From a virus (taxonomy: Duplodnaviria; Heunggongvirae; Uroviricota; Caudoviricetes): a DNA stretch of 5,231 nucleotides. Made by a program: the position numbers. Shown here piece by piece: positions 3,001 to 5,231 of this stretch. Every line of letters begins with the position of its first letter. Within the stretch, counting starts at the first letter, position 1. The stretch is from IMG/VR virus record IMGVR_UViG_2667527898_000016. One strand, 5' to 3'.

Positions 3001-5231
3001 TGCTTACCATCCGGTTTCGTGTAACAGGCAATGTATTCACCACGCCAGGGATAAGCCACAATGGAGGCCGGATTAAACTGACTCTGCCACTGTTCCGGTG
3101 AAATAATCTGCTCCGTCGCCAGAGCTGCATTACCGTTTGCATCAACAGACACCAGGCCATTTGTTCCTGCATACAGCACAAAGCCCTCCATCGCGACCAT
3201 ACTCCGCCTGCTCAGACACGCCTGCATTGAAGGAATTCTGGAGCCAGAAATTGTGGAAGGCGATACACCACTGAACAGATAAGGCTCACCCTTTGTCGCC
3301 ACCACCAGTGATGTTCCGAGCGGACAGATAGCTACAATATCTTCTGCCGTCGTGTGACGATTCACTTCCGGCCATGCATACGGCAGATACGCTTCCGAAA
3401 ACATCACTTCATTACCGGCAAATCCGGCGGCAATACCATTCGCCATCAGGCAAAGGCCTGTCATATTCTCCGGCGGCGGCAGGTAATCCCATGTCGCCAG
3501 CGAAGGTCCAAGATTTTTCGCCGGTATTTTATCCGTGTAACTGAGCACGGATGCATCCAGTTCAGCCACGAGTAAAAAATCGGCTTCTCCTCCCCCTGAG
3601 GCAGAACGATAAATACGACGACGTTTAATACTGGCATTCTGCAATGGCACCGGAGCCAGCGTCAGTTGTACCGCAGTTCCCGGAGTACGGAGTGTTACCT
3701 CCAGAGACGCCGGACCTGGCGGACCTTCTTCACCATAATCTGAGACAAAGGTTTCCGTATAAAACCGGGTTTCATCATCATTCGGGTTATCGTCAGAAAC
3801 ATCACCGCCCTGCTGGACAGTACAGACAGGAGCTGTCGTCGGCGCGGGGATCCCAAGACGATACGATGATGTCGGGTGATTCCCGTCCCCTTTTGTGGCA
3901 ATGGTCGCATCCGTCACTTTAGGAAAACGCCCGTCAGTGTAGTAAATACGCCCGTGGGGGTCCTGAGCGATCGGACTGCGGATCACATCCACCACATCCG
4001 GCCATGCAAACCAGAAATCGTCACGGTAATGAAAAATTGTTTTTGGCTTAATTGTGAATGTTTTCTCAACCCCGGATATCTGACGTTCTGGTGTAATAAC
4101 ACCAAACCGGAAATGGCAGTCCTCCGCCAGTACAGCGGAATGCTCGGGCAGCATGGATGTCACAACGCGCGGCATCATCCCACGCATCGTGGTGATATCG
4201 ATATAGGGCATAGAAATTCCTTTGACTGCTTCAGGCTTAAAAATCAGGGGATTTATGATGGAATTCGCTAAAATCGCGATCGGTATCACTGCAACAGAGT
4301 GTTGCTATGATATTCTGGACAAGACGTAACAACTCACTAATTGTTATCAAACGTCTTTCTTCTGGTCGGGGAGCATGTTGCTCCCCTTTTTTTACTGCAT
4401 TACCACCGCAGCTGTAGCAACAAGAGCCAGCACACCACCAAGCCACACAAACAGCATGAAGCACATTGCGCCTGTGGTGTAACGTTTTCTTCCGATTGTC
4501 CGGCATCTCTCTTTATTCATCATCTGCACCTTCTGAACTATCAGAAGATTCTGCGCATCCGGCAGGACCGCCATCAGGCACCAACAAGCCGTCTGACGCT
4601 CACACCATACAGCCCGTTTTTCGCCATTCCCGTATACAGAAAGGTATTCACCGTCTTCGTGTGGATACCCATTTCACTGGCAAGGCGACAGGGTCTCGAC
4701 TGGCGGTAGACATAACCGAACATCACCACCATCTCTGACATCGTCAGCGGTCGGGCAGCACTGTTATACGTCCAGACGCCGTTGTGTATGGCATCACTTA
4801 TCTGCTCACCATCACGGAGCAACTCCGCATCCAGTTGCAGAAAATGACGCCCCTGGAACATACACCGCATCAGCCTGCCCAGCAGGCCATCACTGATTAT
4901 CAGCCAGGATTCGTCAAAGTCCGGGATATAACGGCGGTTCTCCGGCATGAAAAACTCCCTCGCCAGTATCACACTGTGTTCCTTCAGTAACGCCTGCAGA
5001 CCGTACTCCAGATAGCGATTCCTGGTAGCCAGAATCACCTTCATCGCAGCACCTTCCTGTTTTTTATGCCCCATGAAAAACGGCAGACCAGAGTCCTGCG
5101 CCTGCCGTCATACTTCATGTCACCTTCAGCAATTAAAACTCGAAGTTCACACCTACGTTGTAGGAAACATCACCGTCGCTGGCCGCAATACCTGCTTTGG
5201 CTGCGGTCTGCTCGTTGAAGCGGTAACCCAC

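What the first reader, a model, noticed from the sequence alone, without database searches (positions are those of the whole stretch)
4290..4395. Structured intergenic region: three consecutive hairpins ending in a plus-strand terminator with no plus-strand gene upstream
Between the tail-gene start and the small membrane protein gene the plus strand carries (i) GCAACA-GAG-TGTTGC at 4291-4305, (ii) an imperfect long hairpin AAGACGT...ACGTCTT at 4321-4357 with an inner AACAA/TTGTT pairing, and (iii) a strong GC stem plus T7 terminator at 4368-4393. The terminator is oriented for a plus-strand transcript, yet all credible genes are on the minus strand. Its T-tract overlaps the stop codon of the small membrane protein gene on the opposite strand. 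This fits a roughly 100-nt convergent small RNA, as in 3'-overlapping type I toxin-antitoxin pairs, or a riboregulatory leader. I could not find a convincing sigma-70 promoter for it by eye.
Basis: seen in the sequence. Interest (0 to 1): 0.55.

Follow-up and report, generated by a model that had tools for sequence, protein, structure and literature searches.

The report
Orphan terminator at prophage cassette edge
The hairpins and the plus-strand terminator are real, but they look like the leftover tail end of an opposing gene that this prophage has lost, sitting at the edge of an inserted gene cassette, and not like a toxin-antitoxin RNA; whether a small RNA is still made from it is unproven.

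Summary
The three hairpins and the GC stem plus T7 terminator are at the stated coordinates. The region folds better than all 200 shuffles.

The window is an Eib-type E. coli prophage, 100% identical to phage P-EibD over 4203-4530. The same intergenic region lies upstream of the essential tail gene in Stx phages (O157 Sakai Sp5, O104:H4).

Only the terminator is conserved. Its stem is kept in every context, with two compensatory pair changes. Hairpin 1 and the long stem of hairpin 2 occur in one lineage only, and uncompensated SNPs break the long stem.

The terminator marks a former convergence point:
- In related prophages the same terminator, still overlapping the stop codon of the 42-aa membrane protein gene, ends a plus-strand dinI gene.
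- In others, with about 120 nt homologous to window 4275-4393, it follows a ykgJ-like gene.
- Here those genes are gone.

A type I toxin-antitoxin reading fails. Overlap with the small ORF is 3 nt or less, and the ORF occurs without this RNA body or with half the terminator.

A residual small RNA remains possible. A strong extended -10 promoter-like site sits 80 nt upstream. Two single CLASH reads show plus-orientation RNA at the Sakai locus. No Rfam family or published Hfq-bound sRNA matches. Interest is low to moderate.

The parts
4368..4393 (+). Intrinsic terminator: 8-bp stem GGGGAGCA/TGCTCCCC, loop TGT, T7 tract. It is the only part conserved in all contexts.
   Evidence: -14.0 kcal/mol. 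It is kept in the Stx-phage, ykgJ and dinI contexts, with pair 7 varying C-G/U-A/U-G and pair 8 varying A-U/U-A. 97-99% of cells are paired.
4275..4367 (+). Non-coding 'body' upstream of the terminator. It is homologous to the sequence that follows the stop codon of a ykgJ-like gene in other prophages. It comprises a conserved 5' block CGCGATCGGTATCACTG, a variable middle, the hairpin-2 region and a CU-rich linker.
   Evidence: blocks of 17/17, 43/48 and 13/13 with L133. Searches show three lineages, T1, T2 and T3.
4291..4305 (+). Hairpin 1 (GCAACA-GAG-TGTTGC). It is the core of a 29-bp imperfect palindrome at 4284-4312 and is present only in lineage T1.
   Evidence: -4.8 kcal/mol; the palindrome is -10.3. 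Absent in O157 T2 and in L133 T3.
4321..4357 (+). Hairpin 2: a 7-bp outer stem plus a 5-bp inner stem. The outer stem is T1-specific.
   Evidence: In the outer stem 81% of cells are paired, and the central C-G pair is broken in 6 of 9 variants. The inner stem shows one C-G to U-A change, but alone it is not stable in T2 or T3 (0 to -0.3 kcal/mol).
4358..4367 (+). Single-stranded pyrimidine-rich linker (TCTTCTGGTC, preceded by TCTT) just before the terminator. It would be an Hfq-type U-rich site if transcribed.
   Evidence: Identical in T1 and T3, related in T2.
4283..4316 (+). Promoter-like site P2: -35 GTATCA (4283-4288) with an extended -10 TGcTATGAT (4303-4311). It overlaps TGaTATTCT (4308-4316), whose counterparts TGaCATTCT and TGcCATTAT persist in T2 and T3. 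The predicted start at about 4317-4324 would give an RNA of about 70-77 nt.
   Evidence: A simple position-weight scan of my own: third best of 10,370 positions in the window. Counterparts in other lineages. Not tested experimentally.
4230..4259 (+). Promoter-like site P1: TTCAGG, 18 nt, TATGAT, inside the fully conserved block. The predicted start at about 4266 would give an RNA of about 128 nt containing all three hairpins.
   Evidence: It fits the Sakai CLASH fragments, which cover the P2 -10 region and so must start further upstream.
4212..4290 (.). Block that is almost invariant in all Stx-phage-type loci. It holds the 5' leader and RBS of the tail gene on the - strand. Divergence between lineages begins at about 4291.
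   Evidence: The SNP pattern argues against coding.
4392..4520 (-). Small membrane protein gene (42 aa, ORF-60D of P-EibD, phrog_9340). It is the last gene of the eibD-orf156-small ORF cassette, and its stop codon overlaps the T-tract.
   Evidence: conserved core RYT(A/T)GAMCFMLFVWLG in 11 variants.
2586..4211 (-). Tail/virion gene downstream on the - strand (homologue of 933W L0124 and Sakai ECs1232, essential for Sp5 infectivity).

Best explanation
The region is the orphaned 3' end of a plus-strand transcription unit that once converged on the eibD-orf156-small ORF cassette.

At the ends of lambdoid E. coli prophages, plus-strand genes (dinI, and a ykgJ-like Cys-cluster gene) run head-on into the tail-fibre/eib operon. 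They end at this GGGGAG...CTCCCC-T(5-7) terminator, which abuts the stop codon of the small membrane protein gene.

In the lineage of this window, the cassette together with that convergence point sits in the late operon of an Stx-type short-tailed phage, just upstream of the essential L0124/ECs1232-like tail gene. The plus-strand coding genes are absent. About 120 nt of non-coding sequence and the terminator remain.

Shown:
- The homology.
- The conservation of the terminator hairpin.
- The lack of conservation of the other hairpins.

Inferred: today the element simply stops whatever plus-strand (antisense) transcription arises at or upstream of 4230-4320. That yields at most a short, low-abundance non-coding RNA ending near 4391-4394. 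It keeps antisense transcription out of the cassette. It has no dedicated partner gene.
For: (1) Context. The window is 100% identical to phage P-EibD over 4203-4530, and the same intergenic region occurs in 178 phage records, mostly Stx phages, and about 390 E. coli genomes.

(2) Terminator shared with dinI. In PhiR5_1 and STEC2018-607 the same terminator, in the same overlap with the small ORF stop codon, ends an intact plus-strand dinI. P-EibE has a dinI 3' remnant plus a ykgJ 3' end before it. 32 genomes carry dinI, terminator and small ORF together.

(3) Body shared with a ykgJ context. In CP55_Sichuan and IBS28, window 4275-4393 aligns to the sequence that directly follows the stop codon of a plus-strand ykgJ-like gene and runs to the terminator.

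(4) Gene order elsewhere. dinI and ykgJ-like remnants are consecutive plus-strand genes convergent with tail-fibre genes at other prophage ends.

(5) Insert. A related phage has the L0124 homologue directly after the DUF4376 gene, with no cassette and none of this region. Homology ends at window 4211, so the whole block is an insert.

(6) Structure. The terminator stem is maintained with double changes at two pairs. Hairpin 1 is absent outside lineage T1. The hairpin 2 outer stem is hit by three independent uncompensated SNPs. The T2 and T3 bodies are essentially unstructured.

(7) No known RNA. No Rfam family matches, even at E = 1. No Sp5 peak at this locus appears in the Hfq-CRAC sRNA list of Sakai.
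Against: - The body is better conserved between distant contexts (43/48 between T1 and T3) than neutral decay of a useless remnant would suggest.
- A TGn-extended -10-like motif persists at the same place in all three lineages, and in T1 it scores third best in the window.
- The U-rich linker, GC hairpin and U7 tail are the classic Hfq-binding module.
- Plus-orientation RNA from the Sakai locus was captured twice in RNase E CLASH, once ligated to MgrR through an 8-bp match.
- The terminator travels with the small ORF more faithfully than with dinI. Most prophage dinI genes match only over the coding sequence (about the first 240 nt of the query), with the match not extending into the terminator or small ORF. 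So 'belongs to the lost gene' and 'belongs to the cassette edge' cannot be fully separated.
- The exact deletion history was not reconstructed, because no intermediate was found with an intact ykgJ or dinI next to the L0124 gene.
Confidence: 0.55

Rival explanations
1. It is a working small-RNA gene, an Hfq-type sRNA derived from a former 3'UTR. Transcription starts at P2 (about 4317-4324, giving about 70-77 nt) or P1 (about 4266, giving about 128 nt) and ends at the terminator. The RNA would act in trans through its unstructured 5' part or CU-rich linker. Alternatively it would act in cis on late or read-through transcripts just upstream of the tail gene, as the BTP1 antisense RNA STnc6030 does for a tailspike gene.
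For: - P2 is an extended -10 promoter-like site ideally spaced before hairpin 2 and 80 nt before a strong terminator, and it ranks third of 10,370 positions.
- A TGn-YATTMT motif is kept in lineages T1, T2 and T3 although the surrounding segment is scrambled.
- The U-rich linker, GC hairpin and U6-7 tail are present.
- Two CLASH hybrids contain plus-orientation RNA of the Sakai locus, one joined to MgrR.
- The element persists in about 390 E. coli genomes while the adjacent small ORF decays.
Against: - No Hfq-CRAC peak in Sakai Sp5 at this position, although eight other Sp5 sites were called.
- It is not among the described prophage sRNAs: PasA-D, HnrS, AgvB, AsxR, Esr41, StxS or 24B_1.
- The CLASH reads are single counts, and they cover the P2 -10 element, so in T2 they do not come from P2.
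- The body differs strongly between T1 and T2, so there is no common seed.
- T-tract variants TTTCTTT and T5 exist.
- An IS66-type element is tolerated inside the region.
- There is no outstanding complementarity to neighbouring ribosome-binding sites.
Confidence: 0.3
2. The structures act on the minus strand. They would form a leader, processing site or stabilising hairpin for the late/cassette transcript that runs from the small ORF into the tail gene, or a protein-binding palindrome (4284-4312) controlling that read-through.
For: - The complementary RNA folds into the same hairpins (z = -3.3).
- The cassette has no sense-strand terminator after the small ORF, so transcripts must cross this region.
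- The 29-bp palindrome looks like an operator.
- The block 4212-4290 next to the tail gene start is nearly invariant.
Against: - On the minus strand the strong hairpin is preceded by A7 and followed by GACCAGAAG, so it is not a terminator there.
- The T-tract orientation is conserved for the plus strand.
- The palindrome and hairpin 2 are missing in the O157 lineage, which has the same essential tail gene.
- A related phage expresses the homologous gene with an unrelated 78-nt upstream region.
Confidence: 0.08
3. It is the antitoxin RNA of a type I toxin-antitoxin pair whose toxin is the 42-aa membrane protein, arranged tail-to-tail like txpA/RatA or bsrG/SR4.
For: - A small basic-plus-hydrophobic protein lies convergent with a terminator-ended non-coding unit.
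- A Hok/Gef gene elsewhere in the same prophage type shows that such systems ride on it.
Against: - Overlap with the ORF is 3 nt or less.
- The ORF family is found with dinI and no RNA body, with a different hairpin, and with the 5' arm of the terminator deleted.
- In Stx phages the RNA body is kept while the ORF carries deletions or is truncated.
- The protein matches only a phage family of unknown function and no toxin model.
Confidence: 0.04

Closest known systems
Intrinsic (Rho-independent) terminators at convergent gene junctions and moron boundaries of lambdoid phages
   Same: GC-rich 8-bp stem, 3-nt loop and a T7 tract. It sits exactly where two opposing transcription units meet, at the edge of an inserted accessory cassette (eibD-orf156-small ORF). 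The stem is kept by compensatory changes.
   Different: In this window the plus-strand unit it should end has no gene. It is unidirectional and points against the cassette and the late operon, whereas the textbook moron terminator follows the moron on its own strand (eibD has such a terminator at 5099-5083).
3'UTR-derived Hfq-binding sRNAs (e.g. DapZ, MicL, CpxQ, SdhX)
   Same: The body plus terminator is the tail of an mRNA in a related prophage (after the ykgJ-like stop codon). It has an internal promoter-like site, a U-rich stretch, a GC hairpin and a U7 tail.
   Different: The parent gene is deleted here. No Hfq binding, no defined 5' end and no target is known. The sequence is not conserved as a seed between lineages.
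Prophage sRNAs of pathogenic E. coli (AgvB/AsxR anti-sRNAs, HnrS, PasA-D, Esr41, StxS, 24B_1)
   Same: Short non-coding unit with an intrinsic terminator inside an Stx-type prophage, oriented against the late genes. One CLASH read links the Sakai version to the core sRNA MgrR, which recalls anti-sRNA behaviour.
   Different: Different locus and sequence from all of them. Those lie near Q/PR', stx, the lysis genes, downstream of lom, or in other prophages. This element is absent from the Hfq-CRAC list and has no Rfam family.
STnc6030 of Salmonella prophage BTP1 (antisense RNA to the tailspike gene, superinfection exclusion)
   Same: It would be an antisense RNA made in the tail-gene region of a short-tailed temperate phage.
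   Different: STnc6030 overlaps the tailspike coding sequence and has a demonstrated phenotype. Here the RNA would overlap only an intergenic leader, not the RBS or the coding sequence, and no phenotype is known.
Type I toxin-antitoxin pairs with 3' overlap (txpA/RatA, bsrG/SR4)
   Same: Tail-to-tail geometry of a small membrane protein gene and a non-coding unit.
   Different: Almost no overlap, the partners are not co-inherited, and no toxin family membership was found.

Membership tests
Intrinsic terminator | GC-rich stem of at least 5 bp, a short loop, and a run of at least 5 U immediately 3' | tested here: met
   8 bp (6 GC), 3-nt loop, T7. Best-scoring site in the window. -14.0 kcal/mol.
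Intrinsic terminator | Stem maintained in relatives through compensatory substitutions | tested here: met
   Pair 7 is C-G, U-A or U-G and pair 8 is A-U or U-A. 97% of cells are paired against about 60-75% in slid controls. There are few sequences, so statistical support is modest: 13/500 shuffles for pairing and 55/500 for double changes.
Intrinsic terminator | Actually stops RNA polymerase on the plus strand | not testable with these tools
   Needs Term-seq or 3' RACE, or an in vitro or reporter termination assay.
Type I toxin-antitoxin (3'-overlapping) | Antisense RNA with extended complementarity to the toxin mRNA | tested here: not met
   The predicted RNA ends at 4391-4394 and the ORF ends at 4392, so overlap is 3 nt or less. 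Complementarity exists only to a hypothetical read-through 3' extension.
Type I toxin-antitoxin (3'-overlapping) | Toxin gene and antitoxin RNA inherited together | tested here: not met
   The small ORF occurs with dinI plus the terminator only (L010, L135), with another hairpin (L138, L142), and with half a terminator (L134). The body occurs with a decayed ORF in O157 and O104 phages.
Type I toxin-antitoxin (3'-overlapping) | Small hydrophobic protein that is toxic when over-produced | not testable with these tools
   The protein is 42 aa with a basic N-terminus and one hydrophobic segment. Its only match is phrog_9340, of unknown function.
Hfq-dependent sRNA | Own promoter or defined processing site giving a discrete 5' end | tested here: inconclusive
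   Promoter-like sites P2 (third best in the window) and P1. No 5'-end data were accessible. The Sakai CLASH fragments start upstream of P2.
Hfq-dependent sRNA | Terminator hairpin with a U-tail of at least 6, preceded by a U-rich single strand | tested here: met
   UCUUUCUUCUGGUC, then the hairpin, then U7. The tail is weaker in some variants (T5, TTTCTTT).
Hfq-dependent sRNA | Detected bound to Hfq, or destabilised without Hfq | tested here: not met
   No peak at this locus among the 63 Hfq-CRAC candidates of Sakai. The Sp5 entries lie elsewhere, and the coordinate offset of 142 nt between genome versions was checked. This rests on the literature only, on the T2 variant and on uninduced cultures.
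Any Rfam RNA family | Covariance-model match | tested here: not met
   No hit at E up to 1 in the window. No gathering-score hit in four related loci.
Named prophage sRNAs (PasB, HnrS, 24B_1, AgvB/AsxR, Esr41) | Same sequence or same locus | tested here: not met
   The PasB probe sequence was not seen on reading the window sequence; no pattern search was run. HnrS lies in Sp9, Sp10 and Sp12. 24B_1 lies between lom and vb_24B_43. The EcOnc coordinates differ.

The most novel reading that the evidence does not exclude
The remnant has been taken over as an undescribed small RNA. It would be shared by Eib phages and by the medically important Stx1/Stx2 short-tailed phages (Sakai Sp5/933W type, O104:H4 phage). 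It would be made in lysogens from a promoter inside the former 3'UTR and would end at the conserved terminator. It would act as an Hfq-associated sponge or anti-sRNA (the Sakai form was caught ligated to MgrR). Alternatively it would act as a cis-antisense RNA against incoming late transcripts just upstream of an essential tail gene, a form of superinfection control.
Probability: 0.2. Interest if true: 0.55.

Novelty: new member of a known kind. Interest (0 to 1): 0.27.

Why it matters
If the relic reading holds, the finding is an instructive but ordinary case. Phage mosaicism can move a convergence point, terminator included, into the middle of an operon. That leaves a strong 'terminator without a gene' which mimics a small-RNA locus. 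Genome scanners should check neighbouring contexts before calling sRNAs or type I toxin-antitoxin pairs.

If the rival reading holds, it would add one more non-coding RNA to Shiga-toxin phages. These phages are already known to carry regulatory sRNAs that rewire host networks. It would also be an example of an sRNA surviving the loss of its parent gene.

Tried and rejected
- **Rfam**: permissive threshold on the window, gathering threshold on four related loci. Nothing found.
- **PasB**: considered because it is described as embedded in phage structural operons. Rejected on locus (prophage PP6 of E2348/69), and its probe sequence was not seen on reading the window; no pattern search was run.
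- **EcOnc33, EcOnc54 and EcOnc36 of Sakai**: checked by position. They lie at other loci.
- **HnrS and 24B_1**: rejected by location.
- **dinI remnant**: searched for inside window 4100-4500 by tblastn. None found.
- **ykgJ origin of 4212-4274**: tested as a shrunken ykgJ promoter and start. Only 8-mers are shared, so it is inconclusive.
- **Core ykgJ of K-12**: it has its own unrelated terminator, so the body is not an ancestral ykgJ 3'UTR.
- **ykgJ-like genes in deposited phage genomes**: rare, and no intermediate was found.
- **Hücker 2017 ribosome-profiling supplements**: no entry at these coordinates.
- **Sy 2020 supplements** (dRNA-seq/Term-seq): not held.
- **Viral-contig scan**: a loose terminator pattern returned mostly unrelated terminators, which were filtered by BLAST.
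- **Duplex search**: the linker was tested against all minus-strand segments of the window. Nothing stood out at the ribosome-binding sites.
- **Terminators upstream of eib in L001**: no relation to the body beyond the GGGGAGC stem.
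Full report
**What the window is**

Bases 1-171 are the end of an IS1 copy. They are 100% identical to the IS1 in the related locus L001. The IS1 truncates an Ail/Lom gene, of which the N-terminal 51 codons remain at 167-322 on the minus strand.

The rest is a prophage late region with all genes on the minus strand. 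Reading from right to left they are:
- the 3' end of the YadA-like immunoglobulin-binding gene eibD (to 5133), followed by its own sense terminator at 5099-5083;
- orf-156 (5044-4574);
- a 42-aa membrane protein gene (4520-4392, ORF-60D);
- the intergenic region in question;
- the L0124/ECs1232-like virion gene (4211-2586);
- a tail tip fibre gene (2589-1321);
- two small genes.

Over 4203-4530 the window is 100% identical to phage P-EibD of strain ECOR-9. The same intergenic region is present in 178 deposited phage genomes. Most of these are Stx1/Stx2-converting short-tailed phages, including VT2-Sakai/Sp5, 933W-type phages, phage 86 and the O104:H4 phage. It is also present in roughly 390 of 5,426 complete E. 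coli genomes. In Sp5 the downstream gene ECs1232 is essential for infectious particles.

The plus strand of 4290-4395 folds into exactly these elements at -33.2 kcal/mol, z = -4.5, with no shuffle as good. The terminator is the top terminator-like site in the window on either strand. Its T-tract overlaps the TAA of the small ORF (complement of 4392-4394).

One correction concerns the tail gene start. The ATG at 4211 is much more likely than the GTG at 4289 used in old annotations. The ATG has an AAGGA Shine-Dalgarno sequence and the GTG has none. PGAP uses the ATG. Homology to more distant relatives of the gene ends exactly at 4211. SNPs in the 78-nt 'extension' are mostly non-synonymous. The intergenic region is therefore 4212-4391.

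**What is conserved and what is not**

I collected 17 distinct versions of the region. They show this pattern:
- The block 4212-4290 is almost invariant in all Stx-phage-type loci.
- From 4291 to 4367 there are three lineages: T1 (this window, O104:H4, O111, phage 86), T2 (O157 Sp5/933W type) and T3 (two E. coli chromosomes, L133 and L147).
- The terminator is again shared by all.

For the individual hairpins:
- **Hairpin 1**, and the 29-bp palindrome around it, exist only in T1.
- **Hairpin 2, outer stem**, exists only in T1. Within T1 it is hit by three independent one-sided SNPs with no compensation, and the central C-G pair is intact in only 3 of 9 variants.
- **Hairpin 2, inner stem**, has 5 bp and shows one C-G to U-A switch in T2. 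On its own it has no stability in T2 or T3.
- **The terminator stem** is paired in 97-99% of cells. It shows double substitutions at pair 7 (C-G, U-A, with a U-G intermediate) and pair 8 (A-U, U-A) across contexts.

With so few sequences the statistics are modest. The picture is still consistent: one selected hairpin, the terminator, and two lineage-specific ones.

**Where the terminator comes from**

The small ORF is a genuine, conserved phage gene. It matches phrog_9340, and 11 protein variants share the core RYT(A/T)GAMCFMLFVWLG. It ends the eib cassette in several kinds of prophage. What lies beyond its stop codon on the plus strand differs:

1. In phage PhiR5_1 and strain STEC2018-607, an intact dinI gene runs towards it. 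dinI stops 10-20 nt before the same GGGGAG...CTCCCC-T6 hairpin. 32 genomes have this arrangement.
2. Phage P-EibE has a ykgJ-like 3' end, a dinI 3' remnant and then the terminator.
3. In strains CP55_Sichuan and IBS28, a ykgJ-like gene ends and is followed at once by about 120 nt. These align with window 4275-4393 in blocks of 17/17, 43/48 and 13/13, and run into the terminator.
4. In one strain the junction lies inside the terminator loop, so only the 3' arm is left, yet the ORF is intact (L134). In two viral contigs a different hairpin takes its place (L138, L142).

Elsewhere, dinI and ykgJ-like remnants are consecutive plus-strand genes at prophage ends, convergent with tail-fibre genes. 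A related short-tailed prophage has the L0124 homologue directly after the DUF4376 gene, with neither the cassette nor this region.

The simplest reading is as follows. The cassette, together with its convergence point, was recombined into the late operon. The plus-strand genes were lost. Their non-coding tail and terminator stayed.

I could not reconstruct the deletion itself:
- No dinI remnant is detectable in the window.
- Resemblance of 4212-4274 to the ykgJ start region is limited to 8-mers.
- The core ykgJ gene has an unrelated terminator.
- Most prophage dinI genes match the dinI-terminator-small ORF query only over the coding sequence (about the first 240 nt), with the match not extending into the terminator or small ORF. 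This terminator is therefore tied to the cassette edge at least as much as to dinI.

**Is an RNA still made?**

The consensus promoter scan finds nothing here. A simple position-weight scan that credits extended -10 elements gives a different picture. It ranks TGcTATGAT (-10 at 4306-4311) with -35 GTATCA third of 10,370 positions in the window. Overlapping it is TGaTATTCT, whose counterparts TGaCATTCT (T2) and TGcCATTAT (T3) persist at the same place in an otherwise scrambled segment. A second site, TTCAGG-18-TATGAT (4230-4259), lies in the invariant block. These would give RNAs of about 70-77 nt or about 128 nt. Each would end in a U-rich linker, GC hairpin and U7 module typical of Hfq-binding sRNAs.

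Published data for the Sakai (T2) version are thin but not empty. The RNase E CLASH tables of Waters et al. contain two single-count hybrids whose one half is plus-orientation RNA from this locus. It is labelled the 5'UTR of the since-withdrawn ECs1231. One hybrid is joined to MgrR through an 8-bp match and one to rRNA. I mapped the fragment to NC_002695.2 1,287,669-1,287,635, which is 142 nt off the older coordinates. The fragment covers the T2 counterpart of the -10 element, so that RNA began further upstream.

Against this:
- The Hfq-CRAC catalogue of Sakai lists eight Sp5 sites and none here.
- The element is none of the named prophage sRNAs.
- Rfam has nothing.
- T1 and T2 share no plausible seed.
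- Some variants weaken the T-tract.
- One prophage carries an IS66-type insertion in the region.
- A duplex scan found no notable pairing with nearby ribosome-binding sites.

**The type I toxin-antitoxin idea**

It fails on two defining points tested here. The RNA would overlap the ORF by at most 3 nt. The two parts are also not inherited together: the ORF occurs without the body, with another hairpin or with half a terminator, and the body persists in O157 and O104 phages where the ORF is truncated or carries deletions. Toxicity of the protein was not testable.

**Verdict**

The best-supported explanation is an orphaned terminator plus 3' non-coding remnant at a transplanted convergence point. 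It acts at most as a stop for antisense transcription (confidence about 0.55). An exapted small RNA remains a live alternative (about 0.3). A minus-strand role (about 0.08) and a toxin-antitoxin role (about 0.04) are unlikely.

The element itself has not been described. Its kind is well known.

Noticed in passing
window 1-171 and 167-322 (-): The left end of the window is an IS1 terminus, 100% identical to an IS1 copy in L001. It cuts an Ail/Lom outer-membrane gene, leaving only its signal peptide and first 51 codons.
   Followed up: partly
window 4284-4312: Hairpin 1 is the core of a 29-bp imperfect palindrome, TATCAcTGCAACA-GAG-TGTTGCtaTGATA. Its outer arms coincide with the -35 and -10 of promoter-like site P2, so it looks like an operator. 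It is present only in lineage T1.
   Followed up: partly
window 4255-4329 (+): A 24-codon ORF (MMEFAKIAIGITATECCYDILDKT) has an AGGGGA Shine-Dalgarno-like sequence. The O157 version ends after 18 codons with a different C-terminus, so it is probably not a gene.
   Followed up: partly
window 4212-4289 (-): Old phage annotations (933W L0124, VT2-Sakai H0140, P-EibD L0124D) start the tail gene at a GTG 78 nt upstream of the ATG that PGAP uses. The SNP pattern and the homology limits favour the ATG at 4211.
   Followed up: yes
L001 12679-12996 (+), upstream of the eib gene, outside the window: Three further strong plus-strand terminators lie within 320 nt between the DUF4376 gene and the eib gene. 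Two have the same GGGGAG/CTCCCC stem. All point against the late operon, and they are unrelated to the body described here apart from the stem. Their origin is unexplained.
   Followed up: partly
L011 (phage PPwrbA_EC3734) about 300-3000: An IS66-type element is inserted in the homologous intergenic region with an 8-bp target duplication (TAAAATCG). This shows that the region tolerates disruption in at least one prophage.
   Followed up: no
L003/L004 (O104:H4, O111 Stx phages) and L002/L008 (O157 Sp5): The small membrane protein gene is decaying in Stx phages. It has in-frame and other deletions in O104 and O111, and in O157 it is truncated and fused next to an orf156 remnant. The terminator beside it stays intact.
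   Followed up: partly
Sakai NC_002695.1 1292386-1292438 (EcOnc53), about 142 nt after lom in Sp5: An Hfq-CRAC peak with a predicted terminator lies just downstream of lom on the strand opposite the late genes, in the same interval where 24B_1 was described in phage 24B. Coordinates in the 2014 tables are 142 nt lower than in the current RefSeq version at this locus.
   Followed up: no
window 4574-5044 (-): orf-156 matches only phage families of unknown function (phrog_6585, phrog_2014). By eye its C-terminal part resembles a helix-turn-helix, so it may be a regulator that travels with eib genes.
   Followed up: no
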